Source of the DNA: Prorocentrum cordatum
Taxonomy: Eukaryota
Reading direction: 5' to 3'
Length of the DNA: 55,031 bases
NCBI GenBank assembly: GCA_963575745.1
Contig: CAUYUJ010000190.1
Location: 62,001-117,031 of the forward strand
Made by a program: the position numbers and the translations under genes. Shown one piece after another: positions 3,012 through 48,330 of the stretch. The notes below the pieces were generated by a model that saw nothing but the letters and a program-made list of their open reading frames with translations, was not told the origin of the DNA and did no database searches. Each line of letters starts with the position of its first letter. Position 1 is the first letter of the stretch.

Positions 3012-3095
3012 TCTACATAAATACATCACTATTTTTGTGCAGCCTCTTTACTTATTGACTAATCTGTTTCTATATGCATACATCGATACATCTGC

Positions 3096-20485: not shown

Positions 20486-20523
20486 CGGAAGCGCCAGCTG
20501 TCGGAGCTCGGCGCGGACTTCTC

Positions 20524-21801
20524 GGGTCGGCGCCGGAGTCCGCGAGAAGCCTGTGCTCGTGCCGCCGTTTCGATCTCCTGTGCATCGCTGCGCTGATTCT
20601 CTCGGAGACGAGGACTTTCCTCGCGCCCGTCGGGAGGCAGCGGTTCGACCTGGACATGAGCAGCTCCGTGGATGCCGCCGCGCCGAGGAAGATGCGGGTG
20701 CTGCTGAACATCACGATACAGGACTTCCCTTGCGTCGGTCTGAGCCTGGACTACCAGGACGCCATGGGCACCAGAGCCGTCGACGTCAGCACGACGATCT
20801 TCAAGCAGCGGCTGCACCAGAACGGCTCGGTGGTTGGCGAGACCACGCAGAACAGCCCCAATGCCGTCTCGCAGGGGGCCGCGGCCAACCCGACCGTCTC
20901 TGGCAACGCAACAGGGAATTCAACATGCGGCCATTGCTACGGGGCGTTGCCAGATGGACAATGTTGCAACACGTGCTCCGACGTTATCTACGCGTACCGG
21001 CTCAAGCGGTGGGCGCTGCCCCGCATCGAGAGCATAGAGCAGTGTAAGCACGATGGGTCTGGCAGGCCTTCTTACCAGCCGCCGCAGATCATACATTTAG
21101 ACGACTACAGCTCGGACGACTACATACCGAAATTCACGAGGCTCGGGAGCCTCTCTCAATCAGGCAGCGTCAGCACGCCCTTCCGGCTGAACTTCTCGCT
21201 CGAACCCCATAGTTCGGGTGCTGCCAACAGAACGTTTGCGCCGCTCCTGCTGAACCTGAGCGACTTCCTCGCTGGCATCTCCCGCTCCACCTCTGCGCCG
21301 GCAGACGACGCAGCGCTGCGCGAGCTGGACGAGGACTCCTCGGGAGACGGCAACGGCTCCAACGGCTCGACGAACTGGACGCTCACGTGGCCCGACTGCG
21401 TGCACCACAACGTCATCATACACGGCACGGACGTCAACGAGGCCCTGCTGACCGACCTGCGGCCGCACGGCGCCACGCAGGGCTGCTGGCACGACGACTG
21501 CTCGCGCTCGGACCAGTTCGCCTGCGACAGGGCCGAGAGCTGCGCCGGCGCGTGCCGCGCCCTGCCCGCGTGCCACTGGTGGAGCTGGGGCTACGAGTAC
21601 GGCGCGGCCAAGTGCTGGCTCCGCACGGGGAAGCACCAGCGCGGCCGGCGCTACGGCTTCTCCTCGGGCTCCCGGGCCTGCGCGCCGAGCTCGCCCCCGA
21701 CGCCCGCGGCCGCGGCGCCCAGCGCGCCCGCGGGGGCGGCGCGGGCTCCGCCGGGGCGCCGCCTGATGAACTGGGACGACGACTACGCCTACCCCAGCCT
21801 G
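20524..21801 (+). CDS. ERGIC3/Erv46-like, large exon 3 (TM1, ERGIC_N, Cys-rich region, PAN/Apple-like insert); 5' boundary uncertain (20524-20575)
   Basis: LLCIAALILSE, MRVLLNITIQDFPCVGLSLDYQDAMG and CGHCYGA..QCCNTCSDVIYAYRLKRW..IEQC are hallmark Erv46/ERGIC3 motifs. Confidence 0.9.
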
Positions 21802-22120
21802 GCGGCGCGCGCCCTGGGGGGGGTGGCGCGGGGGGGGGGGGGGAGGCGGCCCGCGGAGAGGGCGGCGTTGCTTCCGGGGCGGCCCGGGGGCTGCTCTCCG
21901 GAGCCCTCCCGTGGCGGGCAGGGGGGGGCAGCGATAGGGGGGGGGGATGGGCACATGGGGGGGCTGCATCGAACTCCCCTCGCCCATTGATCGCCGACAG
22001 GGGTCTGATAGCCCCACCCCGCCCAGGAACGATTTGCTATCGGGGGCCTATCGCCGATCTTTCGACGATGCGTCGCCGATTCCAGGTCGATGTTTGCCCC
22101 CAGTGCGAGTCCCCCCTATC

Positions 22121-34046: not shown

Positions 34047-34810
34047 TCTGCGGCTGATCGTGGCGGTGGCACACCTTCGGGGCGTTCCAGAAAGGGTCTC
34101 GCCGGCGAGGGCCGGAGGAGTTGGCGTCTTGCCCTCGGCGGAGGGGTGGCGGAGGGGCGGCCGAGGCCGGCGGAGGCAGCACGAGGCTACTTCAAGGGCG
34201 CCCTCGAGGGCGCGAAGTTATTCGCGCTTCGCGCTTCGCGGTTCGGCTCCGATTCCTCCTCGTCCTCCTCTTCTCCCCTGGGAGGCGGCGCGAGAGGGCG
34301 AAGTTATTCGCACTTCGCGCTTCGCGCAGCGCGAAGCGCGAAGTTGGGAGCCCTTACTACTTCCGGTGCCGGAAGCTGGCGGAGGTAGCAGATGCACTGC
34401 CCAGGGGATGGCAAGGCTTTTCTGTGCAGGGTTTCCAGGACTGGCCATGTGCCGCCTTCTCTTCGGCCCGGGATCTTCGGCGAGGCTGTCGACGTGCCCC
34501 AAAGTCTGGCAGGCAGGGTCGTCCGTGGGGTGATCCCGACGCCGCCGTTCGCACTGCGCGGGGAACAAGCACCATCATAAACATAGCCAAAACTGGGAAG
34601 TCCGCGCAGATTTCTTGGACTGGCGCTGGGTCCCCCTCTCTGGTGCGCAGGGGCGGCGCCAGAGTCGCCGCTAGAGGGTTCAGCGCAAGGATTGTATCTT
34701 CATGCAGGTTTTGCCTCCCTCTGGTAACCCCAGTAAGTCTTTCATGCTGCCAGGATCCCTCCTTAAGCTCTCGATTGCAATGCAACTCGTCCTTCCCCTT
34801 GTTCTTCCCA

Positions 34811-35146
34811 TGATCATCATCATCATCATCACCACCACAATCATCATCAACATCACCACCATCATCATCAGCATCACCACCATCACTATCACCATCACTA
34901 TCACCATCACTACCACCACCATCATCATTATCATCATCAGCATCATCATCATCATAGCATCAGCATCAGCATCAGCACCAGCATCATCATCAGCATCATC
35001 ATCATCATCATCATCATCGTCATCATCAGGATCATCGTCATCATCATCATCACATATGCCATCTCCAGCACCATGACCATCACCATCATCATCAGCATCA
35101 CCACCACCACCACTACCACCACCACCATCCGCATCATCAGCACCAC

Positions 35147-35197
<51 letters not shown>

Positions 35198-35343
35198 TAT
35201 CATCATCATCATCATCATCGTGTCATTGTCATCGTCGTCGTCATCGGCGTCGTCGTCATCATCAGCATCATCATCATCATCGTCGTCATTATCAACATCA
35301 TCATCATAATCACGATCAAATCACCACCATCATCATCAACATC
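34811..35343. repeat. (CAT)n-type microsatellite, left flank of the YR element
   Basis: Read directly from the sequence. Confidence 0.95.
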
Positions 35344-38300
35344 ATGCGCTTCTCTATTCTCCTTGCCGCTCGCGCCCGTTCAGGTCCTGCAGCTTCTCGG
35401 CCCCAAGCTTGCTCTTCTCGCCCCCCGCTCCCCCCGCCGCGCGCGCGCGCGGCCAGGGCGCCAGGGGGCTTGCGGTTGCCACCGCCGCGCAGGTTCCTCT
35501 TCACCTACGCGGCGGTGTTCTACTTGCTGGGCTACGAGCTGCTTTGGGCCACTGCCGCAGGCAGGGGTCCCAACGCTTCCTCCGTGATCTGGCTGGTTCG
35601 GGGTCGCTCTTTCACCCCGCCAGTCAGAGCTCGGGTGGGGGTGGGCCGGCTGCCTCCTGTGGGCACCCGGCAGCGGCGAGTGTGCACACTCTCCGCTCGG
35701 GCGCCGCTGCCCCCCTGGCAGTGCGCGCCCGTGTCATCTGGGCGTGGCCCCAGCCAGGCCGTCCAGGCAGGCGTCTGACCTGCTCGCGGGTTCCTCCCGC
35801 GCCTGCCGCAGCTGCTGCTCGTGTGACGCTGGCTTCTGAGCCCCGTCCCGCAGGCTCGGCATCCGATGGCGCCTGCCTCCCTTTCGCCGCTACAAAACTC
35901 CCCTCCTTCCTCTTGCCTCTTCCCCTTGGACCCCGGAGCGGACGCCCATCTGAGGAGAGGAGTAGGAGGTGGAGTTCCCTCGCATCACGAGGAGGCCGCG
36001 CCATCGGCCCGGAAGAAGAGTGCTCGCGCTACGCCCGTTGCCGGCGCCACTCAAGGGTCGAGCCCGCCCGCCGCCGAACGGTCTATTGCTCGCGCCACGA
36101 GTGTCGCCGCCGCCTCTCGGAACACCGCCCGCCTGGCAACAGGCGGAGAGGCCACCGGCGCGAAGATAACGGCGTCCAGGACGGAGGAGTCGGAGTCGGT
36201 GGACCCTCTCTTTCTCCACTCCCCCTCTACTCCTCCCCCTCCAGTCGCCGCTTCGCCATGGCTCAGCTGCCGTTCGCGGCATCGTTTCCCTCGCGTGGGC
36301 AACGACAGGCGCGCGCGCGCCCAGGGCCCTTCGGGCGGATCGGGACCCAGCGGATTTGAGGGGGTTGGCATGCGCCCTTCCAGCGATGCTGCTACGGCCC
36401 CGCAGGGGAGGGGTCGTGCCGCCCACTCAACCGTCGGCCTGGCTCACCAGTCTGGCCGCCCGCCGCGAGCAAGTTTTCTGGCCGCCTCGCCCGCTCCCGC
36501 GGGTTTTCGGCCCCCTCCAGGGTCGGAGCCGTCGGTTGTCGAAACCAGGCGGGGCGGGAGCTCTGTTCGTTTGGCAATCACCCACGAGCTGTCGCGCGCG
36601 GTGCCTCCCCCGCCTACTGTAGCGGCGGACGCTGTGGATTCTGGCGGTTTGGAGGGGGTGGGTATGCGCTCCTCCAGCGATGCTGTTGCGGCCCCGCAGG
36701 GAGGGGTTCGTACCGCTCCCCCAGCCGCCACCGCAGTTAACCAGCTTAGCACCCCGCCGCGAGACGGTCCCAAGGCAGCTTTGCCCTCGCTTTCGGGACT
36801 CCAGCTCCCTTCAGGGTTGGAGCCGCCGTCACAGACGCGTGCCGAGCGCACAGGGCCACCGCGGAGCAGTCCCAGAGCCGCCTCGCCGACTCGCGCCAGC
36901 TTCCGGCCCCCCCCTGGGTTGGAGTCGCCGTTACAGCCGCGTGCTTGGCGGATGGGCCCACCGCCTGGCTTTGATGCACGAACACCAGCACTGCCGGCGG
37001 CAGCACCAACGCCTGCGCTTACGCCGGCACCAGCGCCAGCGCCTCCTCCTGCGCCGAGGCCGGCACCGATGCCTGCACGAGCGCCAGCACGGACAGCGGC
37101 AGCACCGACGCGTGCGCTTACACCAGCACCAGCGCCAGCGCCGCACCGACGTCAGCATCAACGCCAGCACCTGGCGGCGTCAGCACCGACGCTTGCGCTT
37201 ACGCCGGCACCAGCGCCAGCGCCTACGCCAGCACCGAGGCCAGCGCCGACGCCAGCCCTGACGCCAGCACAGACGGCGGCAGCACCGACGCCTGCGCTTC
37301 CGCCGGCACTAGCGCCAGCGATTACGCCAGGGGGCGCTTCGACAGTGTTGCCCTTCCACCCGCCACCTGGGTTTGAGGCGCTGTCGGGCCCTGCGGTCTG
37401 GCAGGTGGGGCCATCTCCCTGCCTCGCTAGCCTGGAGGCGGGCGCTCGGGTGCCGCCGCCGCACAACCGTTGCGCGACCGACGCCGCGGTTGGGTTTCCT
37501 TTTCCTGACAGCGGAAGTGGGCAGTCGGCGATCCCCTGCCTAGGGGCCTCACCCCTGCCTCCAAGGGAGCCGCTTGCGGTCAGTGCCTCCCGTGCGAGCG
37601 CCCACGCCATCTTGCACTCGCTCGGGCTACTCGGGAATCCAACCTCGGCGTCGACGGACCCCGCGTCCCTGCCAGTGTCGGCCCCCTTGTTGTCAGGCGC
37701 TACGCGACATGTTTCTGCTGCTGCTGCAGATGGTTTCGGGGTAGCTGGTACCTGCCTGCCGGGCGCCGCTGCTTCGGCGCCACAGAGCACGGGTCGCACC
37801 GATCCCTCAGCCCCCGCCGCAGCTCGCGATTTGGGCACGCCGCCGCAAAGCTGTCCTATGGCCACTTCGCCGTGTCTTCCAGGCTTCCTGCCCCCACCAG
37901 GGCTGGAGCCGCCGTCACGGCCGTGTGCCTCGCGTCGCTCTGGGGGCGCCCTCCGCGAGGCTAGAGGCGCTCCAGCCCTTCGCCGACGTGGCGGTTCGTC
38001 TGGGTTTTCAGCCATTCGGGATCGCGGCCACGTTGGCCAGGGCACCTGCGCCACCTCATCGCGTCCAGCTGCGCGCTGGGACCCCAGCTTCGGCGCTCGT
38101 CTCAGCGTGGGGGAAGGCTCGGTCGAACGCCCCTCCGCAGGCGCTCCCGCCTGCCCCTCCCGCGCGCGTCCCCCCGCCACTTGGGCGGGCCGACCCCGCT
38201 GCGGTCGCCGGCTCCGCCGAGGGGGTCGCAGGGGACGCACTGGGGCTGCCTGCCGAGGCGCCCCAGAGGGCTCTCGATCTGGCTTTCATCTGCCAGCGGG

Positions 38301-41300
38301 AGGCGCTGCAGCGGTGCATGTTCATCGTCCAGCTGGTGGGGGGCCGCGGCTACCTCGGAACCGCATGGTTCCTCACGGGGATCAAGCCCCCCCCGTGTCG
38401 CGTGACCTGGTGCGGGTGGCGGCAGGCCCTTGCCGCGCCCGTTCCGCCGGCTCCCAGGCCGCCGGCGGAGCCGCCCTCCACGGCGGCGCATCCCACCACA
38501 GGGGTGGACGCACGCGAGCTGCGTGCACCGGCCGAGGGTTCACGCAGCGGCGAGTCGCTGTAAGCGACGACGCTGCTGCTGCCAGGCGTGCCTGGGCTGA
38601 GCGAGGCCGTGAGAGTAGGCACGCGCTCCTCCAGCGATGCTGTTGCGGCCCCGCAGGGAGGAGTTCGTGCCGCTGTCGCGACTCTCGCTCTACCCCTGGC
38701 TCCCCTTCAGGGCCGAGTGGCCATTTTGGCAATTTTCACCGTGCTGCCGAAGCCCCTTCCGACGGGGACTCAGGCGCACCGCCCGTCGCTTCCATCGGTT
38801 CTGTTGCCAGTGGGAACCCCCCTCGAGTCGACTTGTCCTCCGGGGTCACTACCGTGCCACCGGCCCCTCGAGTTGACCTGTCCTCAGGGGCCGCTGCCAG
38901 TTCCGAAGCCTCTCGCGTTGACTTGTCCGCGGGGGATTCGAGGCCGTCTGCACCTACCGGCACCACGCCTTCCTTTCCCAAGGTCGCGCCCTTTGTCGCT
39001 GACCTTTCTGCCTTGCTGCGCCTGTTTCCTGGCGCGAACATCGATATCACCCATTGGGCTGCTGCTTTAGCTCAGGTTGGGATGGGTGCTCGTTGTTCTC
39101 TGTCGTCTTTCACCCGCACCTCCCTCAGCGCGTCGGCCCGGGACGGCTCGTACGTGTTGGAGCCGCCTCCCCGCGATCCTTGGCCGTGCCCTCCAGCGCC
39201 TTCTCTGCCGCCGCCTCCTGTAACCTTGACGGGTCGCGCGCGCGAGCGGTGGCGCTTGAGGCGCGCAGCGCGCACCTTAGCACAGCACGCCGTTGTTGCG
39301 CTAAACTGGCTCACCTTGGGCCATCCCAGCCTCGCTCCCATCGAGGCCCATGTGTGCACAGCGGCCACGCCCTGCCAGGAGGGTACTCGCGACCGCCTCG
39401 AGCGGTTGTGTCGGATCGCAGTTCGCCTTGCCCGCGGCGGCAAGAGCGACTTAGGTCGGGCTTTCTCCAAGTTCGACGCCACTGAAGTCTCGCTCCATGG
39501 CCTGGCCACCCATGTTGCAGCTATCGAGGCTTCCTTCACCTCCTCTTCCCAGGTGCCCGCCCCCATGCGGCAATGCCCGTCCAGCGCGCCTCCTGTGCCT
39601 GGATCGTTGGCTTCAGCGGCAGGCTGGGACTCCACCCAGTCTGAGCCCTTCGACCTCCGAGTCAGGGCGTCCCGCATCAAGTGGGATTATTCTCCGACGT
39701 TTGATCCCACTCCCTTCCTCGCCGACGCGCGGGTCCGCAAAGCTTTTCACGACCCCGAAACCATGCGTCTTCCGTCGGCCGAGTGGCCATCGGGCCTCCC
39801 GGGGGCCCGCGTCCACATGGACCGTGATCAGCTGTGGGAGCTTCTTCGGAAGTGGGACTCCTGCGGCGCCCTGTACTTGACTCCCACCTCAGACCTGGCT
39901 TGGGATGAGGCTTGCGGAGCGTTCAGGGTCCCCAAGGACAGCGAGTACGATCGGCTGATTCTTAATCCCACGGTGGTGAACAGTCGCTGTCAGAGCATTT
40001 CTTCCAGCACTCAGCGCCTTGGGCAGGGTTTCCTGCTCTGCCGCATGGGTCTCGCTGCAGGCGAGTGGTTGGTGGTGTCATGCGATGACTTACGCGAGTT
40101 CTATTACACCTTTAAGGTGCCACCAGCTCGAGCGAAGCGCAATGCCCTCCGCGTGCGGCTGCCCAGTGCGCGGTTCAAGGCATTCAATGCGTGGCGCCCT
40201 GACCTCGAGGGCGTGGATGTTTCCCCGTGCTTGAACGCGCTGGCTATGGGCGACAACATGGCCGTGGAAATCGCAAACTCTGCGCACGAGGGTGTCCTTC
40301 GCAGCTTCGGGGCTCTTCGCCCCCATGAGCAAGCTGTGCACAGGACTCCGTTTCCGCGTGGCCATTTCGTCGAGATGTTGAACATCGACGATCACACGGG
40401 CTTCCAGAAGCTGTCCTGGAATGGCCTAGCTCCCCGCCCCGACGACCCAAATCGTCGTGATAAGGAGGTGTTTGCTGCGTGCGACCGCGGCTACCCTCGC
40501 GTGGGGCTGGTCCAGCACCCTGGTAAGCGGACCCGTGGCGCGACTCATAAGGTCGTGGTCGGTGCCGAGGTGGAGGGTCGGATAGGCATCGTGTGCGCGC
40601 CTCTTGTGCGCACCGTGGCCCTGTGCCGGCTAACCCTCATCCAAGTGTACCTCGGTCATTCGACCCGCGCGGTGCTAGCGTCGCTCGTCGGATGTTGGGT
40701 GCAAGTGTTTCTCTTTCGCAGGCCCATGCTGTCGATTTTCACGCACGTCTACAACTTCCTGTCGTCGTTGTCGACGGAAGATGGGTTCGAATACGAGCTC
40801 CCCGTCTCCGTTCGCGACGAGCTGCTAGCCTGCGCTTACCTGGCCTTTGTCGCCATTAACGACCTTCGCGCGGGCTACTCCCCCGAAGTGTTCGGCACGG
40901 ACGCCTCCCTCGGCTGGGGGGGAGTGGTCCGCTCCTCGATCAGTCCACATCTCTCCCAAGAGTTGTGGCGCCGGTCTGAGCACGGAGGGTGGCACACGGT
41001 CCTCCACAACCGAAGTTTGCTTGCCGTGCTGGACCGGGGAGTCCCATTAGGCCCCGAGCTCACCCAGCTGCATCGCGATTTGGGGCTCCCTTCCATTGAG
41101 CCCCCAGTCGCGCCGCACTGGATAAGCGAACTGTCGGAAGCGCTGCACTTCCGCCTGGCCTATAAATGGGAATTTCGAATGCCGCGTCACATCAACATCC
41201 TGGAGGCCACTGTTTTCAAGAGTCTGTGCAAGTACTGCTGCGTTCGCATGCCGGACTCTCGGATCCCTGTGCTGCTCGATTCTAAGGTCGCCTTGGGCGC

Positions 41301-44300
41301 GGCCGCCCACGGTCGCAGCAGCTCTCCAGGGCTTTCCCATGTCCTCAGCACGGCTTTGCCTTACATCTTGAGCGGTGGCTTATACATGGGTGGCCTCTAT
41401 GTGCCCACCGACGTCCACAGGGCGGATGACCCCACCAGGAATCGGCCTGTGCGCCCCCCCTCCAGGGAGGCTCCTGCGTGGCTGGTCGACGCTGAGGCGG
41501 GCGATTTCGGTAGGTTCGATTGGGTCGCACTTGCTGACGCGCATTCTCCCTACCCCACTTGCCTATGGGGACGGCTCGCCGCGCTAGTCCTAGCACAGGG
41601 GCTCCTTGCGCGGGGGAATGCCCGGGCCGCCCATGGTCTGGCGGCACGTCCCCCTCTCTCGCCCGCCCCCGCGGCCGACGCATGGTTTGCAAGCGCGGCC
41701 GCCGCAACTGGGGTCGAGGCGCCGGTTTTTCTCGAAGCTCCCGGCACGCTTCCGCAGCCCGACCCAGCGCAAGCCGAGGCTCCAGAGATTCCTAGGCGGA
41801 ACGCCTCTCCCGCGGTGGGCGGCGGATGCCTCGGGGGAAGGAGCGCCGAAGGTGCCGCTGAGCTCTCCGCGCTTCCCCATGAAGCCTCCCAGGGCGCGTC
41901 GCCTTTCGAAGCGCCCTTCAGGCCGGGTGCGGCCCCCGTTGCCGCTGGCCCGCCCGGCGCGCCCGCCCAGCTTTCGGCGGCCAGGCCGAGGCTCGCCGCC
42001 CGGACCGATCCCAAGCGACCCGCCAAGGTTGCAAAGGTGCGGACGGCGCGCGAGCTCCTTCAGCTCAAACCGGGTGCCGACCGGTCGGCCATGGAACGCC
42101 AGTTCCGGCGGTTGGCCACGCCGCACCGCCCGGACAGGGCGCGCCATCGCCCATTGTCCGCATCGGACCGCGCGGACGCCTCTCCCCTCTGGTCCAGGTT
42201 CTGCGACGCGAAGTCGCTCCTGCTTGGCGAGGCTTCTCGTTGCCAGCCGGGAGCGGGAACCCTACCTTGCCAGGAACGGGAGCACGGGACTTGCCGCGGA
42301 GGCGTTCGTGCGGGCCCGCGCCTATATGCAAGAGCGCGGCCGTGGCCAGACGGGCGCGCCGCCGGCGCCTGCCAGTGCTTGCAGCCCGAGCTGGGCGGAG
42401 CACGGCCGGATTTCGGGGCCTCCGCCTCTGGGACTCCCTCGGCGCCCTGCTCTTCGCGCGGAAGGCGCCATCGGCCAGCTCGTCCAGCGGAAACGGTTCG
42501 CGCTGAGCGCCCCCGTCGTGCGCGCGCTGCTCGTGCGCCCGCGGCGCTGCTCTCGGCGCCTGGCGCGGCCGCGCCGCCCCCGGGTCGTAGGGCCAGGCGC
42601 ACTGCCAATTTCGCGCTGTGGGGCCAGCCTTGCGCGCGCCATCGCGCCGCCGCGTCGGCGGACGAGGGGCGTGAGCCTTTGCCTTCGCGCTCCTGGAGCC
42701 CGGGCCTTGGAGCAGGCGCGCCCGGTGCCCCCTCCAGCAGCGCCCGGCTCGGCAGCACCTCGAAGTGGCGCGACGCGCCGCTTGCGCCGGGGGACGGCGC
42801 CCGCGTTCCGCATACTTTTTCCGACCGCGCCCCGCGACGCCAGTCGGACTCGCAGGACGCGCCGCCAGTGGCGTCGCCGCGGGGCTCTCGCCGCGCACCG
42901 CCGCCGCGGGGCGCTCGCGCGAGCACCCGCTCGGCTGGCCCAGCCGCCCGCTTCGCGGCCGCTCCGCCGCCGCGCGGCTCCGGCAGCGACCCCGCTTGCG
43001 ACCTCGCTTCCGGAGCTCGCGACCCGCCCACGGTCACCGGCTCGGCGAGCTCCGGGAGCTTGCCGGTTGGCGCATTCTCGGCGCGGGGCGCCAGGATCAG
43101 CATGGGCCCTCCTGCTCGCGCCGCCAGTGCGCCACCAGCATTACGCGTCGACGGTGCACCCATGCGGGTTCCTGCGGATCGATTGCGGCCGAACGCGCTT
43201 GCGCGCATACCCGCGGCCTCGGGGCCCGCCGCCGCCTCCTTCGCCATGCTTGAGGCCGCGCCCCGTGCCGGGGCCAGTCCGAGGTCTCTTGGCCCCGCGG
43301 CCGCGCCTCGCGCCGCACTTCTGTCGGTGGACTCGCCCGTTGATAGCGCGGATCTCCCCCAACCTAGCGGAGCCGCGCACGAGAAGGGCTCAGACGCGTT
43401 GGCGGCTGCGCCACACCTTCTCGACTCCTTGGAGCCCTCTGCGCGCGCGGCTCGAGGCCTGCCCCAAGACGGGGCGTGCGCTACCTCGGTTGCGATGCGC
43501 ACCAGCCGAGTCGCTGGCCCAGCGGCCGCGGTTGCGCGGCGCGCGCGTGCCGACCGGCGCGCTCGCGCGCGATTCCTATCCTCGGTCGCCGCTGCCGAGG
43601 CCGCTCTCACCGAGGTTATGCTGGGAACAGGCGAAGAGACTGGCGAGAGCGCGGGAGAGCTGGCGAAGCGAATGCAGACGCTCTTAGCCGAGCTCGAGCG
43701 GCGCAAGGATGCGATGCGCATCGCCCGCTCTCGTCTTGCTGATTGCGTCAGAGAGGCCGCCTCCGCTGGATTCCCTGAGGCGGCGGCGTACTCGCCCTCG
43801 CCTGTGGCAGCGCCAACTGCCCTCGCGGAGGTGGACAGCGCCGCCGAGGCGGAGGCCAGGGTTGGTACGGGCTTGCACAGCGAGGCTGAGCCGGCGCGGC
43901 ATCGCGACGAGAGTGCCACCCTTGCCTGGCCTCGGCGAGTCCCCCACCCCGCGCGCCGCCGCCGCCGCAGGGCGGCAGAGACGGAGCCTCCCAGCGCTCC
44001 CTGGTCAGGCGCTGTTCTGACTTCGGCCGGCGATCGGCGCAAAAGAGCTCTCTACGCGTTCGAATTGTGGTGCGCCGAGGACGCAGGGGTGGCGCCACTT
44101 CCGCTGTATCGTAGTGGGATCCTGCTGTCGAGGTTCCTCGCAACGTTCGGCGTGTGGCTGCACGACGCAGGTTTCCCGCTCAACATCCTGGTGCACGCGA
44201 TCATAGGCGTCCAGGCACGTCTCCCTCATTGGAAGCCCTTTCTCACCGAGGCGTGGGGAGTGGCGAGGGCCTGGAAGCGGTCTCAGCCACCTCGCCTTCG

Positions 44301-45435
44301 GCCGCCAATGCCACGAGCGCTCTTGCGCGCTATGGTGGCAGTTTGTTTCACTTGGGACTGGCCAGTCATGGCCGCCTTGCTGCTGGCAGGGTTCACGATG
44401 TCCTTGAAGCCCGACGAGCTGCTGTCAGCCCGTCGCTGTGACCTTTTGTTGCCTTCGGATTGCCTTGAGTCCTCAGGCAACGCTTGGATGACCATTCCCG
44501 ATCCAGTGAGCAGCATGTCTTACCCGCCACAGCACGCCTGGTGCTCTGACAAAGCGGTGGTTCGGGTTTTGGAGATGGTCTTTCGGCATTTGGGTCCCAC
44601 CGATCCTCTGTCGACCTTTGGTCAAAGCGGCTTCCGTACTCGGTGGAACCATTTACTTTTGGCGTTAGGCGTACCGCTCGCCGAGACGCCAGCGGGGTTC
44701 CACTTGACCCCTGCTTGCCCCCGCGGCTCAGGCGCGACAGACTTTCATACGGCCACAGAAGATATTGGTCGTATCTTCTGGCGTAGTCGCTGGCGCCAGG
44801 CGTCTAGCGCGGAGCGCTTCTTGCACGACGATGCTTCCGCCGCGATGCTTTCCGCCTTGCCTGATGCCGCTCGGGCCCGTGTCACCTACTTCGATGGCGC
44901 GAGCGACTTCCTTGTCGCTTCCTTTCTGAACTGTGGCCCCACTGCGTGGCCCCTTCTGCTCGCGGCCGCCCGCCAAAACCTTGTCACTTCGCAAGGGCTT
45001 TGAGCCTGGGTATGGCTGCTACGGCCACCTGGCCGTCCAGATGGCCTCGTTGGACGAGGTCGTCTGAGGGCGCCGCACGGCTTGGGCGCGGCGCCCCGTC
45101 ATCCTTTACGGGTCGCCGCGCGCGCGCCGCGCGCCCGCCTCCGGGACCTGATCGCTTGCGCTGCGTGCGGGAGAATGCGCTTCTCTATTCTCCTTGCCGC
45201 TCGCGCCCGTTCAGGTCCTGCAGCTTCTCGGCCCCCTCCCCCCCTCCCCGCCTTACTCAGGCAGGCCTGCGGCGCTGCTACGGCCACCTGGCCGTCCAGA
45301 TGGCCTCGTTGGACGAGGTCGTCTGAGGGCGCCGCACGGCTTGGGCGCGGCGCCCCGTCATCCTTTACGGGTCGCCGCGCGCGCGCCGCGCGCCCGCCTC
45401 CGGGACCTGATCGCTTGCGCTGCGTGCGGGAGAAT
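35344..45435 (+). mobile_element. Full-length tyrosine-recombinase (DIRS-order, PAT/Ngaro-like architecture) retrotransposon with split direct repeats
   Basis: A1 35344-35404 = A2 45175-45235 (61 bp). B1 45015-45176 = B2 45274-45435 (162 bp). Order A1-ORF-B1-A2-B2, no TSD, encodes RT/RNase H/YR. Confidence 0.93.
35866..45003 (+). CDS. 3045-aa polyprotein: low-complexity N-terminus, RT (~39920-40600), RNase H (~40890-41440), DnaJ-like domain (~42043-42225), coiled coil (~43550-43770), tyrosine recombinase (~44030-44830)
   Basis: RT: FRVPKD..DRLILN, DDLREFYY, LAMGD..AVEIA, IDD. RNase H: TDAS..GG, HINILE, LLDSKVALGA..GRSSS, YVPT..RADDPTR. YR: RPPMP, GF..LKPDE, RGSGAT, RSRW. The true start and the frame of the first third are uncertain. 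Confidence 0.88.
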   Translation: MAPASLSPLQNSPPSSCLFPLDPGADAHLRRGVGGGVPSHHEEAAPSARKKSARATPVAGATQGSSPPAAERSIARATSVAAASRNTARLATGGEATGAKITASRTEESESVDPLFLHSPSTPPPPVAASPWLSCRSRHRFPRVGNDRRARAQGPSGGSGPSGFEGVGMRPSSDAATAPQGRGRAAHSTVGLAHQSGRPPRASFLAASPAPAGFRPPPGSEPSVVETRRGGSSVRLAITHELSRAVPPPPTVAADAVDSGGLEGVGMRSSSDAVAAPQGGVRTAPPAATAVNQLSTPPRDGPKAALPSLSGLQLPSGLEPPSQTRAERTGPPRSSPRAASPTRASFRPPPGLESPLQPRAWRMGPPPGFDARTPALPAAAPTPALTPAPAPAPPPAPRPAPMPARAPARTAAAPTRALTPAPAPAPHRRQHQRQHLAASAPTLALTPAPAPAPTPAPRPAPTPALTPAQTAAAPTPALPPALAPAITPGGASTVLPFHPPPGFEALSGPAVWQVGPSPCLASLEAGARVPPPHNRCATDAAVGFPFPDSGSGQSAIPCLGASPLPPREPLAVSASRASAHAILHSLGLLGNPTSASTDPASLPVSAPLLSGATRHVSAAAADGFGVAGTCLPGAAASAPQSTGRTDPSAPAAARDLGTPPQSCPMATSPCLPGFLPPPGLEPPSRPCASRRSGGALREARGAPALRRRGGSSGFSAIRDRGHVGQGTCATSSRPAARWDPSFGARLSVGEGSVERPSAGAPACPSRARPPATWAGRPRCGRRLRRGGRRGRTGAACRGAPEGSRSGFHLPAGGAAAVHVHRPAGGGPRLPRNRMVPHGDQAPPVSRDLVRVAAGPCRARSAGSQAAGGAALHGGASHHRGGRTRAACTGRGFTQRRVAVSDDAAAARRAWAERGRESRHALLQRCCCGPAGRSSCRCRDSRSTPGSPSGPSGHFGNFHRAAEAPSDGDSGAPPVASIGSVASGNPPRVDLSSGVTTVPPAPRVDLSSGAAASSEASRVDLSAGDSRPSAPTGTTPSFPKVAPFVADLSALLRLFPGANIDITHWAAALAQVGMGARCSLSSFTRTSLSASARDGSYVLEPPPRDPWPCPPAPSLPPPPVTLTGRARERWRLRRAARTLAQHAVVALNWLTLGHPSLAPIEAHVCTAATPCQEGTRDRLERLCRIAVRLARGGKSDLGRAFSKFDATEVSLHGLATHVAAIEASFTSSSQVPAPMRQCPSSAPPVPGSLASAAGWDSTQSEPFDLRVRASRIKWDYSPTFDPTPFLADARVRKAFHDPETMRLPSAEWPSGLPGARVHMDRDQLWELLRKWDSCGALYLTPTSDLAWDEACGAFRVPKDSEYDRLILNPTVVNSRCQSISSSTQRLGQGFLLCRMGLAAGEWLVVSCDDLREFYYTFKVPPARAKRNALRVRLPSARFKAFNAWRPDLEGVDVSPCLNALAMGDNMAVEIANSAHEGVLRSFGALRPHEQAVHRTPFPRGHFVEMLNIDDHTGFQKLSWNGLAPRPDDPNRRDKEVFAACDRGYPRVGLVQHPGKRTRGATHKVVVGAEVEGRIGIVCAPLVRTVALCRLTLIQVYLGHSTRAVLASLVGCWVQVFLFRRPMLSIFTHVYNFLSSLSTEDGFEYELPVSVRDELLACAYLAFVAINDLRAGYSPEVFGTDASLGWGGVVRSSISPHLSQELWRRSEHGGWHTVLHNRSLLAVLDRGVPLGPELTQLHRDLGLPSIEPPVAPHWISELSEALHFRLAYKWEFRMPRHINILEATVFKSLCKYCCVRMPDSRIPVLLDSKVALGAAAHGRSSSPGLSHVLSTALPYILSGGLYMGGLYVPTDVHRADDPTRNRPVRPPSREAPAWLVDAEAGDFGRFDWVALADAHSPYPTCLWGRLAALVLAQGLLARGNARAAHGLAARPPLSPAPAADAWFASAAAATGVEAPVFLEAPGTLPQPDPAQAEAPEIPRRNASPAVGGGCLGGRSAEGAAELSALPHEASQGASPFEAPFRPGAAPVAAGPPGAPAQLSAARPRLAARTDPKRPAKVAKVRTARELLQLKPGADRSAMERQFRRLATPHRPDRARHRPLSASDRADASPLWSRFCDAKSLLLGEASRCQPGAGTLPCQEREHGTCRGGVRAGPRLYARARPWPDGRAAGACQCLQPELGGARPDFGASASGTPSAPCSSRGRRHRPARPAETVRAERPRRARAARAPAALLSAPGAAAPPPGRRARRTANFALWGQPCARHRAAASADEGREPLPSRSWSPGLGAGAPGAPSSSARLGSTSKWRDAPLAPGDGARVPHTFSDRAPRRQSDSQDAPPVASPRGSRRAPPPRGARASTRSAGPAARFAAAPPPRGSGSDPACDLASGARDPPTVTGSASSGSLPVGAFSARGARISMGPPARAASAPPALRVDGAPMRVPADRLRPNALARIPAASGPAAASFAMLEAAPRAGASPRSLGPAAAPRAALLSVDSPVDSADLPQPSGAAHEKGSDALAAAPHLLDSLEPSARAARGLPQDGACATSVAMRTSRVAGPAAAVARRARADRRARARFLSSVAAAEAALTEVMLGTGEETGESAGELAKRMQTLLAELERRKDAMRIARSRLADCVREAASAGFPEAAAYSPSPVAAPTALAEVDSAAEAEARVGTGLHSEAEPARHRDESATLAWPRRVPHPARRRRRRAAETEPPSAPWSGAVLTSAGDRRKRALYAFELWCAEDAGVAPLPLYRSGILLSRFLATFGVWLHDAGFPLNILVHAIIGVQARLPHWKPFLTEAWGVARAWKRSQPPRLRPPMPRALLRAMVAVCFTWDWPVMAALLLAGFTMSLKPDELLSARRCDLLLPSDCLESSGNAWMTIPDPVSSMSYPPQHAWCSDKAVVRVLEMVFRHLGPTDPLSTFGQSGFRTRWNHLLLALGVPLAETPAGFHLTPACPRGSGATDFHTATEDIGRIFWRSRWRQASSAERFLHDDASAAMLSALPDAARARVTYFDGASDFLVASFLNCGPTAWPLLLAAARQNLVTSQGL

Positions 45436-45715
45436 CATCATCACCATCACCATCATCATCATCATCATCATTATCAGCATCAGCATCGCCATCACCATCG
45501 CCATCACCATCACCATCATCATCACCACCATCATCATCATCATCATCACTATCAGCATCATCATCATCACCATCACCATCACCATCACAATCATCAACAC
45601 CATCATCATCATTATCAGCATCAGCATCAGCATCAGCATCAGCATCAGCATCATCAACACCATCATCATCATCATCAGCATCATCATCATTATCATCAAC
45701 ATCATCATCATAACT

Positions 45716-45754
<39 letters not shown>

Positions 45755-45905
45755 GTCATCGTCATCGTCATCGTCATTGGCATCGCCATCACCACCACCA
45801 CCACCACCACCACCACCACCACCACCACCACCACCACCACCACCACTACCACCACCACCACCACCACCACCACCACCACCACCACCACCACCACCACCAC
45901 CATCA
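45436..45905. repeat. (CAT)n/(CAC)n microsatellite, right flank of the YR element
   Basis: Read directly from the sequence. Confidence 0.95.
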
Positions 45906-47139
45906 CGCTCCAAAAAGACGCATTTTCCAGGCATGGGGGGGCGTGGGGCGTCGGGCGTTCGGTGAAGGGGCCCCTGCCCCGATCTGCGCGCTCCTCGTCG
46001 CCGCGCGTCGACCTGTGCAGACGTCGGTGCCGGCCGACTTTCGGGTTGTCTGTGGAGTCTGTCCTCGTCGTCGTCGTCGTCGTGTCGACTGTGCTTGCGA
46101 GCGTCGATTGCTTTCGGGTTGTCTGCGGGCCAGCACATGCACGCACGCCGAGGTCAACACATACAGGTAGGTCAACACATACCCATCGGTCGTTGAAAGT
46201 AGGTTGAAAGTAGTAGCAAACGTGCGTCAATTTCCTGTCCTCCTTCCGCAGCCATAACTGCGACGTGCGGGCCATGGACGACGCGCTGGACCTCGGCGTT
46301 GACTGGGCGCAGTTGCGGCTTCGGTACCTGGGTGGAAGTGACGGCGCGGGCAGGGGGCGCCAGGCGGCGAAGGGCCACGCTGATCGCCGCGCACCCAGGA
46401 AGGACCAGAAACAGTGGAAGGTCGTCACCTAAAGCCGCGGGCGCGCCCGCCCTTGTTTCACCCTCATTCACTCTGGCTTCTCCTGGGTGTGGCCGTGACC
46501 CAGCCTTCCAGCGGGCAGCCTTATGCAGCTTAGGTTCTGTACGGTCGCGACAGGGTCGGGTGTGGTCTATCCTACTTGGCTCCTGGCGTTGCCAACAGGT
46601 CCACAGGTGTCACAGGTGGCACACTCCGGATGACTGTTGGTCATGCGTCGCATCCGCTGGCGCCGCCTTCATTGTCCCGGTGTCACTCGCCATTGGCTGC
46701 GCGCGAGCACCCTGGGTACATGTTTGGCATTGGGTGTGGTCCATCCTGCTCGGTTGCCTTGCTATGCATTCACAGGTCTTGCTATGCTATGCATGGACCA
46801 CGGTGCACATGATTGCTCCTGGGACGCAGGTTTACCTACCTTTGAGCGGTCATTACTTGATCTGTCGGTGTGCGACGCTTCGGCTGGCGCCTCTTCAGAT
46901 CTCGCGCCATTTTGGCAGCGCGTGTCAGGTTTGGCTGATTTGGTGCTCCCTGGGTTTCCCTGGGTCACCTTGCAGCTCTGCCCTGGGTTCAGCTCTCCCT
47001 GGGATCAGCCTCGCCCTCGCCGCAGTTGCTGCTTGCTGCATCCGGCGCCGCCGCGGCCGCCTAGTCGCGCGCGTTAGCCGTCGGTAATTTAAGCCGGTCG
47101 CGGCCCGACCTACTTCGCCCGCTGCTGGCGCGTTCGCCT

Positions 47140-48330
47140 GCGGCCGTAAAAAAAAGTAACCCCGCCAGCCCATCCAGAAACGAGGCCCAGAGGAATTGCC
47201 TCGATCAGGGAAGTGGGCAGCACACAGAGGAATGGTCCCCCAGTGGAGGCTTCTTGGAGCGTCTTGGGTGCCTCGGAAAGCTTCTTGGGGCCTCTTGGGG
47301 GTCTCTTGGGAGCATCTTGGAGGCCTCCTGGGCCTCCTGGGCGCCTAATGGGGCCCTCTTGACGCGCTCTTGGGAGCCTTGGGGGCGCTCTCGGGGCCAT
47401 CTTCGGGGACATCGATCAAACAAGAAGCGAGCATTAGTTAGCGTTGCCCCTCGGGAGCCCAAGCAATCGCTTCTTGGGGCGCTCTTGGGGGGCTCTTGGA
47501 GCGCGCTTAGACGCTCTTGGGGCCGCCTTGGGGCTCTCTGGAGCCTTTCTTGGAGCCCTCTTGGGCCATGTTGGAGCCATCTTGAGGCCTCGGATGGTCA
47601 TCGGAAGCGAAAAGGCGAGAAAGCCAAACACATAGAATTTCCTCAGGTTTTGGCCTCTTCGGAGCCTCCTGTGGGAGCTCTTTGGCCACTGGGAGCCGTC
47701 TTGGAGCGGTCTTGGGGCATCTTAGAGCATCGTGGGAGCCATTCTGAGACATCTTGGGATATCTTGAGCCATCTTGGACGTCATCTCGAGCTCCCCCAGG
47801 CGCTCTTGGAGTCATCTTAATCAGTGCCCCCCCGAAGAGGCCAACATGTGGCTAAAACCTTAGTATAATCAATGATTTGACATTCTCTCCGAGGCCTCTT
47901 GGAACATCTTGGGTGCCTCGGGGGGGTCTCTTGGGGCCTCTTGGGGGTCTCTTGGGAACCTCTTGGGGGCATCCTGGGGGCCTCTTGGGGCTTCCTGGCC
48001 ACCTTTTGGGGCCCTCTTGGGGCACCCTTGGGAGCCTTGGGGGCCATCTTTGGGGCATCTTGGGTAAGATCGATCACAGGATGGGGGGGGCACTAATTAG
48101 GGTCCCCCCTCAGGAGGCCAACGTGCGGCCAAAACCATAGTAAAACCAATGATTTTGGCTTCCTCGCCGAGGCCGTCTTGGACGTTCCGACACCTCGCGA
48201 AACCCCCTGTCCAGGTCCAAGGAGAGGGGGTATGGGGGCGGGGTAAATCTCTCCCCGAAGGGGGAGAAGGAGGGGTGGAAGAGGAAACTCCCTAAACCAC
48301 CGACGCCCAGAGGGCTGATGGGAATTATCG
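47140..48330. repeat. Dispersed repeat rich in ~11-bp CTTGGGGCC(A)T units; related segments at ~27295-27510 and ~53020-53285
   Basis: Shared CTTGGGGGCCATCTT units, GATCGATC..GGGGGGG and ACCCCC.T..AGGTCCA.GGAG.GGGG blocks. Confidence 0.65.

What the first reader, a model, noticed from the sequence alone, without database searches (positions are those of the whole stretch)
35344..45435. Complete 10-kb split-direct-repeat YR retrotransposon with RT, RNase H, J-like domain and recombinase in one reading frame
Seen: apparently identical A and B repeats and a stop-free 9.1-kb frame in the order RT-RH-DnaJ-like-coiled coil-YR, with no recognisable gag and no methyltransferase motifs. Established: DIRS/PAT/Ngaro elements usually have separate, often overlapping gag, RT/RH and YR ORFs, and some dinoflagellate retroelements carry cytosine methyltransferases. 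Inference: a distinct lineage with a fused polyprotein and a different cargo. This is the strongest candidate for an undescribed system in this window.
Basis: partly seen in the sequence, partly recalled or inferred. Interest (0 to 1): 0.85.

Follow-up and report, generated by a model that had tools for sequence, protein, structure and literature searches.

The report
Dinoflagellate DIRS-like retrotransposon, recombinase disabled
This is a real 10-kb jumping gene of a family already described in dinoflagellates, which copies itself through RNA and inserts with a tyrosine recombinase; this copy lacks the family's usual methyltransferase and protein-splitting signal, and its recombinase has lost its catalytic tyrosine.

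Summary
A1/A2 (61 nt) and B1/B2 (162 nt) are identical. One 3045-codon frame (35866-45003) has 0 stops where shuffles give about 47. Predicted folds confirm a retroviral-type RT-RNase H and a Cre-like tyrosine recombinase (YR), although Pfam recognises neither. The element sits in a (CAT)n microsatellite with no target duplication and shares an AT dinucleotide with the B-A junction.

It is not an undescribed system. Its RT-RH is 27-45% identical to long Symbiodiniaceae proteins of the DIRS-like family described in 2018 (SymbioDIRS). A single Pol-YR frame is the family norm: 24 of 28 related metagenome loci have it. Relatives separate the YR with a 2A ribosome-skipping motif (25 of 28 loci) and carry a cytosine methyltransferase.

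This copy has neither feature. Instead it has an ~800-aa fast-evolving low-complexity linker with a weak, orphan J-like stretch (RPD instead of HPD). Its YR keeps the fold but has F for the nucleophile Tyr (Y in 167 of 168 relatives) and V for the hairpin Lys. It therefore probably cannot integrate on its own.

Verdict: a new variant of a known kind, of moderate interest. The 2A signal at the Pol-YR junction across the family is the more notable by-product.

The parts
34809..35345 (.). Left flank: (CAT)n microsatellite, the target array.
   Evidence: Tandem Repeats Finder gives period 3 and 180 copies. Sequence read.
35344..35404 (+). Split direct repeat A1. Its first two bases (AT) are shared with the microsatellite.
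   Evidence: 100% identical to 45175-45235.
35405..35865 (+). 5' untranslated leader between A1 and the first ATG.
   Evidence: Sequence read and ORF list.
35866..45003 (+). Single 3045-codon ORF (P0001), stop codon included.
   Evidence: It has 0 stops against 46.6 expected. The same sequence, with 0-3 differences and no gaps, appears in contigs of three independent runs.
35866..39165 (+). N-terminal ~1100 aa. Low complexity (52-75% A+P+R+G+S per 100-aa block), with internal repeats and R/G-rich stretches. No relative was found. It may play a gag-like role (inferred).
   Evidence: Composition. Over 35866-38955, 0 stops against 13.1 expected. No Pfam hit. No hit in relatives. Tandem repeats at 36981-37330.
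39283..39555 (+). Conserved pre-RT region (aa ~1140-1230), shared with family members.
   Evidence: BLASTP and phmmer hits at 30-45% identity to relatives.
39658..40785 (+). Reverse transcriptase (aa ~1265-1640). Catalytic D1408 and D1508-D1509 are kept.
   Evidence: AF2 pLDDT 89.1. Foldseek matches HIV-1, HERV-K, foamy virus and MLV RT at E 8e-14 and up, over ~640 aligned columns. 78 of 82 family-conserved RT-RH columns are kept.
40783..41505 (+). Connection plus RNase H (aa ~1640-1880). D1679, E1780, D1805 and D1854 are kept.
40993..41109 (+). Disordered loop (aa 1710-1748) at the exact place where most relatives carry a ~300-aa C5 methyltransferase insert.
   Evidence: pLDDT below 50 at query residues 471-489 and 496-509. 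Split RH hits in relatives. Alignment.
41566..41625 (+). Remnant of the family's 2A (ribosome-skipping) site. The W and the Leu-rich part are kept, but GD[IV]Ex[NH]PGP is absent.
   Evidence: Alignment with relatives. There is no PGP anywhere in P0001.
41626..44010 (+). A ~800-aa low-complexity linker (74% GC) specific to this lineage. Relatives have about 25 aa here (class 1) or a methyltransferase (class 2).
   Evidence: Over 41503-44025, 0 stops against 9.0 expected. No homologues. No DNMT remnant.
42052..42240 (+). J-like stretch (aa 2063-2125) with RPD in place of HPD.
   Evidence: Pfam DnaJ E 0.002, 18.6 bits, below the 27.8-bit cut-off. 6 of 8 weak PDB sequence hits are J domains, and the alignment puts R under the H of HPD. 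ESM Atlas: 22 of 30 hits are DnaJ clusters, top score 0.93.
44023..44985 (+). Tyrosine-recombinase fold (aa ~2720-3040), two domains, Cre-like.
   Evidence: AF2 pLDDT 89.9. Foldseek top hits are Cre (4crx_A, E 9e-6, TM 0.57/0.61, 308 columns), then XerA, XerH and Tn1549 Int. 2015 representatives at E<=1e-3.
44407..44409 (+). K2848 at the box-I Arg position (LRPxE in relatives, LKPDE here).
   Evidence: Relatives have R in 119 and H in 56 of 180; none has K.
44506..44508 (+). V2881 at the beta-hairpin Lys position.
   Evidence: K in 173 of 179 relatives.
44818..44820 (+). F2985 (codon TTC) at the position of the nucleophile Tyr.
   Evidence: Y in 167 of 168 relatives. Close relatives P0078, P0087, P0108, P0167, P0186 and P0214 have Y. 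Contigs of runs X1, X2 and X3 cover it with 0 differences.
45015..45176 (+). Split direct repeat B1.
   Evidence: 100% identical to B2.
45175..45235 (+). Split direct repeat A2. It overlaps B1 by the dinucleotide AT, which is the B-A junction.
45236..45273 (+). A 38-nt C-rich spacer between A2 and B2.
   Evidence: Sequence read.
45274..45435 (+). Split direct repeat B2. Its last two bases (AT) are shared with the microsatellite.
45434..45906 (.). Right flank: (ATCACC)n/(CCA)n microsatellite, in phase with the left flank once the element is removed.
   Evidence: Sequence read.

Best explanation
The element at 35344-35435 plus its 3' repeats (to 45435) is a YR (order DIRS) retrotransposon of the divergent family known from dinoflagellates (SymbioDIRS). 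It lies in what is most likely a GC-rich dinoflagellate genome.

Shown:
- A1-[one 3045-aa ORF]-B1-A2-B2 architecture.
- Intact RT and RNase H folds and catalytic residues.
- A Cre-like YR fold.
- Insertion into a (CAT)n array with no target-site duplication. The dinucleotide AT is common to the B1-A2 junction and to both element/flank junctions.

Inferred mechanism (following the Ngaro/PAT model cited in PMC6681497):
- The full-length RNA is translated as one polyprotein.
- RT-RH makes a cDNA whose split repeats let the ends be joined at a B-A junction.
- A YR then recombines that junction with an AT in the target, conservatively.

Relative to its family, this lineage has lost, or never had, the C5 methyltransferase. 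It has also lost the 2A skipping site that releases the YR, and has gained an ~800-aa disordered linker holding a degenerate J-like stretch.

This copy's YR has Phe for the nucleophile Tyr and Val for the hairpin Lys. It therefore most likely cannot cut DNA, and the copy was, or would have to be, integrated by a recombinase supplied in trans.
For: - Repeats and frame.
- Folds: the RT-RH model (pLDDT 89.1) matches retroviral RT p66 at E 8e-14. The YR model (pLDDT 89.9) matches Cre at E 9e-6.
- Family: RT-RH is 27-45% identical to 1.7-2.4-kaa proteins of Symbiodinium and 'Skav' gene models with the order preRT-RT-RH-YR. The paper describes A-coding-B-A-B elements whose RT Pfam misses.
- RT tree: the window falls in an 8-row clade (SH-aLRT 98) that is sister to a 49-row clade with the methyltransferase inside RH (97).
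- Single frame and 2A in relatives: 24 of 28 and 25 of 28 loci.
- No DNMT. No PGP motif. 2A remnant.
- Active site: Y in 167 of 168 relatives and K in 173 of 179, while the window has F and V. RT-RH keeps 78 of 82 conserved columns, including all catalytic Asp/Glu; YR keeps 19 of 23.
- The same alleles appear in contigs of three runs from three studies.
- Target: in-phase microsatellite on both sides.
- Host: one relic dinoflagellate spliced-leader match with 1 mismatch, 0 expected (the motif was recalled from memory).
Against: - The terminal repeats are 100% identical and the 9.1-kb frame is intact, which is what a young, active copy looks like.
- The box-I Arg column is not invariant in the family (H in 56 of 180), so R to K may matter little.
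- The catalytic roles of the K and Y columns rest on motif spacing compared with Cre residue numbers recalled from memory, not on a residue-level structural superposition.
- No relative with the same linker was found, so loss of 2A and of DNMT cannot be dated. Only one member of the window's RT clade (L013) is known to have a DNMT.
- No split direct repeats of 40 nt or more were found in 5 of 5 relatives' loci examined, out of 39 fetched. Shared termini therefore rest on the paper.
- No reference DIRS, PAT, Ngaro or VIPER sequences were at hand, so placement within the order is untested.
Confidence: 0.72

Rival explanations
1. One reading: a fully autonomous, active element of a distinct, undescribed lineage. 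On this view the fused polyprotein and the J domain (an Hsp70 recruiter) are adaptive cargo replacing the methyltransferase.
For: - Identical repeats and an intact frame.
- The linker frame is kept open (0 stops against 9.0 expected).
- The J-like signal is consistent across three weak methods.
- RT-RH is fully intact.
Against: - The family is described, and the fusion is family-wide.
- The J-like stretch is below Pfam's cut-off, has RPD instead of HPD, and has no homologue in 223 fetched relatives or in a database search.
- The linker of the 83%-identical relative P0002 is unalignable beyond about 70 aa.
- The YR lacks Tyr and the hairpin Lys.
Confidence: 0.12
2. The giant ORF is not one protein. 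On this view the low-complexity N-terminal and linker parts are untranslated or spliced spacers that merely stay open, and RT-RH and YR are made separately, for example by internal initiation or a subgenomic RNA.
For: - The linker shows little codon-position GC periodicity (0.77/0.71/0.74), unlike RT-RH (0.65/0.49/0.73).
- Two other frames of the linker are also stop-poor, with 2 and 4 stops.
- The 2018 paper draws the YR as a separate ORF.
Against: - 0 of 300 shuffles reach 0 stops for either the N-terminal part or the linker.
- The YR is in the same frame as RT-RH.
- Relatives translate the YR from the same frame behind a 2A site, so read-through translation is the family's way to make the YR.
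Confidence: 0.1
3. A decaying or exapted single-copy relic. On this view the identical repeats are kept by gene conversion, and the element is no longer mobile at all.
For: - Element-specific parts assemble as single unbranched contigs at flat depth in three runs.
- The closest YR relatives (P0076, P0078) also carry active-site damage.
- A and B total only 223 nt, so 100% identity bounds the age only loosely.
Against: - There is no stop or frameshift in 9.1 kb, and 78 of 82 conserved RT-RH columns are kept.
- The contigs cannot give a copy number.
Confidence: 0.06

Closest known systems
SymbioDIRS / SymbioDIRS-Dnmt3 elements of Symbiodiniaceae (de Mendoza et al. 2018, PMC5890265)
   Same: - A-coding-B-A-B repeats.
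- A divergent RT that Pfam misses.
- RT-RH 27-45% and YR about 26-35% identical to the long Symbiodiniaceae proteins.
- Pol and YR in one frame.
- A conserved pre-RT region.
   Different: - No C5 methyltransferase, either inside RH or after it.
- No 2A motif.
- An ~800-aa linker with a J-like stretch.
- About 1100 aa of unrelated N-terminal low-complexity sequence.
- Active-site substitutions in the YR.
- It belongs to a sister RT clade, and its GC content is much higher.
Ngaro-like elements (order DIRS)
   Same: Split direct repeats A1...B1-A2-B2. RT/RH plus YR. No methyltransferase. No target-site duplication (definitions read in PMC6681497).
   Different: Ngaro elements have separate, often overlapping gag, RT/RH and YR ORFs, whereas this element has one ORF. 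The phylogenetic relation was not tested.
PAT-like elements (order DIRS)
   Same: Split direct repeats. The order RT/RH ... YR.
   Different: PAT-like elements usually carry a Dam-like adenine methyltransferase and a separate gag ORF. Neither is present here.
[quoted passage not shown] 2025, PMC12338488)
   Same: Relatives of this element carry W-x-R-[LF]-L-L-L-L-x-G-D-[IV]-E-x-[NH]-P-G-P just before the YR. That fits the paper's description of class B (an N-terminal Trp, N or H before PGP, found in dinoflagellates).
   Different: The window's element keeps only the Trp and the Leu-rich part and has no PGP, so no skipping is expected. In the passages read, the paper does not link these peptides to transposons.
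J domain (Pfam PF00226)
   Same: The helix I-II pattern and the spacing up to the HPD loop align to DNAJA1, RabJ, DNAJC27 and Sec63 J domains.
   Different: It has RPD instead of HPD, scores below the gathering threshold, and is not conserved in any relative.

Membership tests
Order DIRS (YR retrotransposons) | Encodes RT/RNase H and a tyrosine recombinase instead of a DDE integrase. | tested here: met
   The folds match retroviral RT p66 and Cre. No other Pfam family was found.
Order DIRS (YR retrotransposons) | Terminal structure is either ITR plus ICR or split direct repeats, with no target-site duplication. | tested here: met
   A1...B1-A2-B2 at 100% identity. The flanks form one in-phase microsatellite with no duplication.
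Order DIRS (YR retrotransposons) | A catalytically competent YR (Arg, Lys, Arg, His/Trp, Tyr). | tested here: not met
   R-II and W are kept. Box-I Arg is K, the hairpin Lys is V, and Tyr is F. This bears on the activity of this copy, not on its ancestry.
Dinoflagellate DIRS-like family (SymbioDIRS) | RT-RH and YR homologous to the Symbiodiniaceae elements, with an RT not matched by Pfam. | tested here: met
   Among the long proteins, E-values reach 2.8e-137. See, the tree, and the Pfam-negative results.
Dinoflagellate DIRS-like family (SymbioDIRS) | Dnmt3-type C5 methyltransferase in the Pol polyprotein (the -Dnmt3 forms). | tested here: not met
   HMMs of both DNMT placements find nothing in six frames (best E 0.43), while the control gave 1e-17 to 1e-20. 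The paper says DNMT-less DIRS co-exist with the DNMT forms.
Dinoflagellate DIRS-like family (SymbioDIRS) | A 2A-type motif between Pol and YR (a feature found here, not in the paper). | tested here: not met
   25 of 28 related loci have it. The window has no PGP and only a remnant.
Ngaro-like | Separate gag, RT/RH and YR ORFs, and no methyltransferase. | tested here: not met
   There is a single ORF. The absence of a methyltransferase is met.
Ngaro-like / PAT-like / DIRS-like / VIPER-like | Placement in an RT/RH and YR phylogeny with reference elements. | not testable with these tools
PAT-like | A Dam-like methyltransferase domain next to RT/RH. | tested here: not met
   No Pfam methyltransferase hit.
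DIRS1-like | Inverted terminal repeats and an internal complementary region. | tested here: not met
   Only two weak inverted pairs of 33 nt (82%) inside the element. The termini are direct repeats.
J domain (PF00226) | Score at or above the gathering threshold, and an HPD tripeptide. | tested here: not met
   18.6 bits against 27.8. The alignment puts R at the His position.

The most novel reading that the evidence does not exclude
This may be a sub-lineage of dinoflagellate DIRS-like elements that has rebuilt its Pol-YR junction. The 2A skipping site and the methyltransferase would have been replaced by a long disordered tether with a J-like, chaperone-interacting module. The YR would have become a non-catalytic DNA-binding or targeting domain: the fold and 19 of 23 conserved columns are kept, yet the hairpin Lys and the Tyr nucleophile are both replaced. 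Integration would then depend on a recombinase from a helper element, making this a 'pseudo-recombinase' retrotransposon that parasitises its relatives.
Probability: 0.12. Interest if true: 0.6.

Novelty: new variant of a known kind. Interest (0 to 1): 0.42.

Why it matters
For the element itself the interest is modest. It extends the dinoflagellate DIRS-like family to a GC-rich host. It also shows a form without the methyltransferase, which speaks to whether that cargo is dispensable. Finally, it gives a clean example of insertion without target duplication into a (CAT)n array through an AT core.

The comparison it prompted is more useful. In this family Pol and YR are encoded in one frame and separated by a 2A-type ribosome-skipping motif. 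This reconciles the published 'separate YR ORF' drawing with the DNA. It would also give a genomic context to the class B 2A peptides reported from dinoflagellates. A lineage that lost this signal and carries a recombinase without its nucleophile is a natural test case for how such elements depend on each other.

Tried and rejected
- Whole-genome search: no genome is held for this window, so no multi-copy consensus could be built.
- Profile searches of the RT-RH and YR alignments against PDB sequences gave nothing meaningful. Single-sequence PDB searches gave the same.
- Pfam scans of 16 and then 34 long relatives gave no RT, RH, YR or DnaJ hit. They found only one PF00145 methylase (P0072) and unrelated domains in chimeric gene models.
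- Metagenome scans: the alignment A1 was too variable to search with. The single protein found no relative. A tighter alignment found 39 loci, all 35-46% identical, with none close to the window.
- Linker/J-like piece (aa 1960-2260) against the protein database: no hit at E<=0.01 among proteins of 165-527 aa.
- ESM Atlas on a host ORF (20467-21990): no usable hit.
- Rfam on the whole window: 0 families.
- Split direct repeats in relatives: none of 40 nt or more in L001, L010, L018, L023 or L033.
- Sequencing runs: no RNA holder was listed. Contigs cannot give copy number or expression.
- Earlier findings of the scan: nothing on this genome or sequence. Three unrelated DIRS-order notes from other genomes did not bear on this element.
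- Considered and rejected: that the open frame is a by-product of GC content; that the linker is a decayed methyltransferase; and that 35310-36359 is a separate gag ORF. That ORF is 349 codons with no ATG, and the window has 54 ORFs of 250 codons or more.
Full report
**What is there**

The region contains two pairs of perfect direct repeats:
- A1 35344-35404 equals A2 45175-45235 (61 nt).
- B1 45015-45176 equals B2 45274-45435 (162 nt).

They are arranged A1-[9.6 kb]-B1-A2-(38 nt)-B2, and B1 and A2 overlap by the dinucleotide AT. One frame is free of stops from 35827 to 45003. Its first ATG is at 35866, giving 3045 aa. The next longest stop-to-stop frame in the 55-kb window has 697 codons.

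**Chance**

- Dinucleotide-preserving shuffles of 35866-45000 give a mean of 46.6 stops in that frame. None of 300 shuffles had zero stops, and the other five real frames have 38-68 stops.
- For the two low-complexity parts alone, the expectation is 13.1 stops (N-terminal 3.1 kb) and 9.0 stops (linker 2.5 kb), again with 0 observed and 0 of 300 shuffles reaching 0.
- The open frame is therefore not explained by GC richness.
- As a caveat, two other frames of the linker are also stop-poor (2 and 4 stops), and the linker lacks the codon-position GC pattern seen in the RT-RH part.

**Insertion site**

Both flanks are one microsatellite: (CAT)n at 34809-35345 and (ATCACC)n at 45434-45906. The left junction reads ...CATCAT|GCGC, the B1-A2 junction reads GGGAGAAT|GCGC, and the right junction reads GGGAGAAT|CATCAT. 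Removing 35346-45435 restores an in-phase ATC repeat, with no target-site duplication. This is what conservative recombination between a B-A junction and a target sharing an AT core would leave. The recombination step itself is inferred.

**Domains**

Pfam finds no RT, RNase H or integrase in the whole protein or in eight pieces, even at E<=10. It finds only a weak DnaJ match. PDB sequence and profile searches are also blank. Structure prediction settles the question:
- Residues 1240-1880, folded with 35 homologues, give a model with pLDDT 89.1. It aligns over about 640 columns with HIV-1, HERV-K, foamy virus and MLV reverse transcriptases, from E 8e-14.
- Residues 2700-3045, folded with 35 homologues, give a model with pLDDT 89.9. 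Its best matches are all Cre recombinase (E 9e-6, TM 0.57/0.61, 308 columns), followed by XerA, XerH and the Tn1549 integrase.
- The remaining ~1100 N-terminal residues and the ~800 residues between RNase H and the YR are 52-76% Ala+Pro+Arg+Gly+Ser per 100-aa block.

**Family**

- RT-RH homologues are numerous, and almost none carries a precomputed Pfam domain (only unrelated ones in a few long gene models).
- The named ones come from Symbiodinium species, from 'Skav' gene models and, distantly, from Prorocentrum cordatum.
- The YR has 2015 representative relatives at E<=1e-3 in 1.84 billion proteins. Some are stand-alone proteins of 300-450 aa, and some form the C-terminus of proteins of 1000-2000 aa.
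- Of the 223 proteins fetched, 82 carry RT/RH and YR together.
- They fall into two architectures. In one, RT-RH is interrupted by a ~300-aa insert and followed about 55-65 aa later by the YR. In the other, RT-RH is contiguous and followed by a 350-550-aa spacer and then the YR.
- Both the insert and the spacer are C5 methyltransferase-like. They contain the motifs DLFSGxxG, PVCxSFS and ENP. HMMs of the two cross-match at 1e-17 to 1e-20, and one relative hits PF00145.
- This matches de Mendoza et al. 2018. I read passages of that paper only. They describe SymbioDIRS-Dnmt3 elements with A-coding-B-A-B repeats, two different domain orders, and an RT too divergent for Pfam. They also say DIRS elements without a DNMT co-exist with them.
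- A relic dinoflagellate spliced-leader sequence with one mismatch lies at 14820-14840 on the minus strand, against 0 matches expected (the motif was recalled from memory). A partial ERGIC/ERV gene shows that the window is eukaryotic. The host is therefore most likely a GC-rich dinoflagellate. This is an inference.

**Is the fusion conserved?**

Yes, but it is not special to this element.
- Of 39 related metagenome loci, 28 contain a YR.
- In 24 of those 28, the end of RNase H and the start of the YR lie in one stop-free frame.
- In 13 of the 28, the whole stretch from the RT start to the YR is one frame, of up to 2227 codons.
- One 'Skav' model spans exactly 1931 codons plus a stop on its scaffold, so it is a single exon.
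- The paper's statement that a separate ORF encodes the YR is reconciled by a feature I did not find in its text. In 25 of the 28 loci, and in 81 of 223 proteins, an [NH]PGP motif is present; in the class-1 relatives shown it reads W-[LV]-R-[LF]-L-L-L-L-x-G-D-[IV]-E-x-[NH]-P-G-P and sits about 25 aa before the YR. The second architecture has R-[IV]-G-E-A-x-[NH]-P-G-P at the same place.
- These are 2A-type ribosome-skipping motifs. Rao et al. 2025 (passages read) describe a class B of 2A peptides with an N-terminal Trp and N or H before PGP, and report them in dinoflagellates. The words transposon and transposable do not occur in their main text, and retrotransposon occurs only in the reference list.
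- One search for papers combining 2A-like, NPGP, DIRS, tyrosine recombinase and dinoflagellate found none that links them.

**How the window's element differs**

1. No methyltransferase. HMMs of both placements find nothing in any of the six frames (best E 0.43). At the place where relatives carry the insert, the model has a 40-aa disordered loop.
2. No 2A. The 3045-aa protein has no PGP at all. The homologous spot (aa 1901-1920) keeps the Trp and the Leu-rich part but not GD[IV]Ex[NH]PGP. The same is true of the 83%-identical fragment P0002 and of L013.
3. A long insertion. Where relatives have about 25 aa between the 2A site and the YR, this element has about 800 aa of 74%-GC low-complexity sequence. 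It has no homologue in the fetched relatives or in a database search. P0002 becomes unalignable about 70 aa after RNase H, even though the flanking domains are 83% identical.
4. An unrelated N-terminus. The N-terminal ~1100 aa match no relative. Only aa ~1140-1230 share the family's pre-RT region.

In a quick maximum-likelihood RT tree of 77 rows, the window falls in an 8-row clade (SH-aLRT 98). That clade is sister to the 49-row clade with the methyltransferase inside RH (97). Its own clade includes one methyltransferase-bearing locus (L013). Loss of the methyltransferase is therefore at least as likely as primary absence. The careful tree search did not finish, and rows with under 320 aa of RT were left out (79 kept, 77 after removing duplicates).

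**The J-like stretch**

- Residues 2063-2100 match Pfam DnaJ positions 4-40 of 63. The E-value is 0.24 on the whole protein and 0.002 on a 91-aa piece, at 18.6 bits against a cut-off of 27.8.
- Six of the eight weak PDB sequence hits (E 0.07-1.1) are J domains. The alignments put Arg under the His of HPD, so the motif reads RPD.
- A protein language-model look-up gives DnaJ clusters for 22 of 30 hits (top score 0.93, 175 shared features). The tool itself calls this a lead.
- None of 50 long relatives scanned has a DnaJ hit.
- I rate a J-domain origin as more likely than not (about 0.6). I rate a working, conserved cargo as unlikely.
- The coiled coil claimed at about aa 2570-2640 was not tested.

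**The recombinase active site**

I aligned 195 family sequences to a profile of the YR.

| Position | Relatives | Window |
|---|---|---|
| Nucleophile Tyr (...ExYLQE, nine residues after the conserved Trp) | Y in 167 of 168 | F2985 (TTC) |
| Hairpin Lys (PKT) | K in 173 of 179 | V2881 |
| Box I (LRPxE) | R in 119, H in 56 of 180; none has K | K2848 |
| Second Arg | R in 173 of 176 | kept (R2953) |
| Trp | W in 97 of 169 | kept (W2976) |

- Box I is evidently less constrained in this family than the other positions.
- Overall the YR keeps 19 of 23 columns that are at least 90% conserved. RT-RH keeps 78 of 82, including every catalytic Asp and Glu.
- Close relatives keep Tyr (P0078, P0087, P0108, P0167, P0186, P0214) and Arg (P0076, P0093, P0098, P0109), although several of them are damaged elsewhere.
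- The substitutions are not assembly errors. Contigs from runs X1, X2 and X3 (three studies) cover 44172-44939, 43938-44991 and 42982-44991 with no difference. A 4299-nt contig of X2 spans 39663-43961 with 3 differences and no gap.
- Assigning these columns to the Cre residues Lys201 and Tyr324 rests on motif spacing and on recalled residue numbers.

**Reading**

This is a member of the dinoflagellate DIRS-like family. It has intact machinery for reverse transcription and the termini needed for a junction-based integration. Its recombinase most likely cannot form the covalent intermediate, and its polyprotein would not release the YR.

The identical repeats and the intact frame argue that it inserted recently, or descends from a lineage still under selection to stay open. 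With only 223 nt of repeat, 'recent' is a loose bound. The most economical account is a copy mobilised, or mobilisable, only with a recombinase from a relative. A relic kept open by chance or by conversion, and a truly autonomous odd lineage, remain possible.

No RNA holder was listed.

**Novelty**

The kind (order DIRS) and the family (SymbioDIRS) are in print. The methyltransferase-less, 2A-less form with a giant linker and a disabled YR is a new variant. The general presence of a 2A signal at the Pol-YR junction is, as far as my two literature searches and the passages read show, not stated in print. The supplements of both papers were not looked at and may bear on this.

Noticed in passing
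Related loci L001-L037 (e.g. L001 just upstream of 8926; L010 upstream of 6533) and proteins such as P0034 (pos 1873), P0044 (1552), P0117 (704), P0142 (1724): A 2A-type ribosome-skipping motif sits about 25 aa before the YR domain in 25 of 28 related loci, and an [NH]PGP motif is present in 81 of 223 fetched proteins. One architecture has W[LV]R[LF]LLLLxGD[IV]Ex[NH]PGP and the other has R[IV]GEAx[NH]PGP. So Pol and YR are encoded in one frame but are probably made as two proteins. This fits the 'class B' 2A peptides reported from dinoflagellates, which the passages I read do not link to transposons.
   Followed up: partly
window 14820-14840 (- strand): A relic dinoflagellate spliced-leader sequence with one mismatch (0 matches in 100 shuffles). 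This suggests a retroposed gene copy and a dinoflagellate host.
   Followed up: no
window 20467-21990 (+): An open frame with partial ERGIC_N and COPII-coated ERV matches (E 1e-7 and 9e-12) that cover only parts of the profiles. It is probably an intron-containing host gene.
   Followed up: no
window 36620-37307, 38340-38683, 39372-39715 and 44876-45219: In the laid contigs these segments of the element have about 4- to 30-fold higher summed depth than the rest (for example 671 and 1268 against about 22 and 80 in X1 and X2). At 85% identity or more they are therefore shared with many other sequences in those runs, presumably other family members or satellite-like repeats.
   Followed up: no
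window 40834 and 40859: All contigs of runs X1, X2 and X3 read A and C where the window has G and A. These are two fixed differences between the window's assembly and three independent runs.
   Followed up: no
window 47261-48000: A dense array of 10-11-nt units (CTCTTGGGGxx) lies downstream of the element. It is unrelated to the element.
   Followed up: no
P0059, P0060, P0061 (Symbiodiniaceae gene models): Several public gene models fuse the retrotransposon polyprotein to host domains (HEAT repeats, an ion channel, a pseudouridine synthase). These are probably chimeric annotations across element insertions.
   Followed up: no
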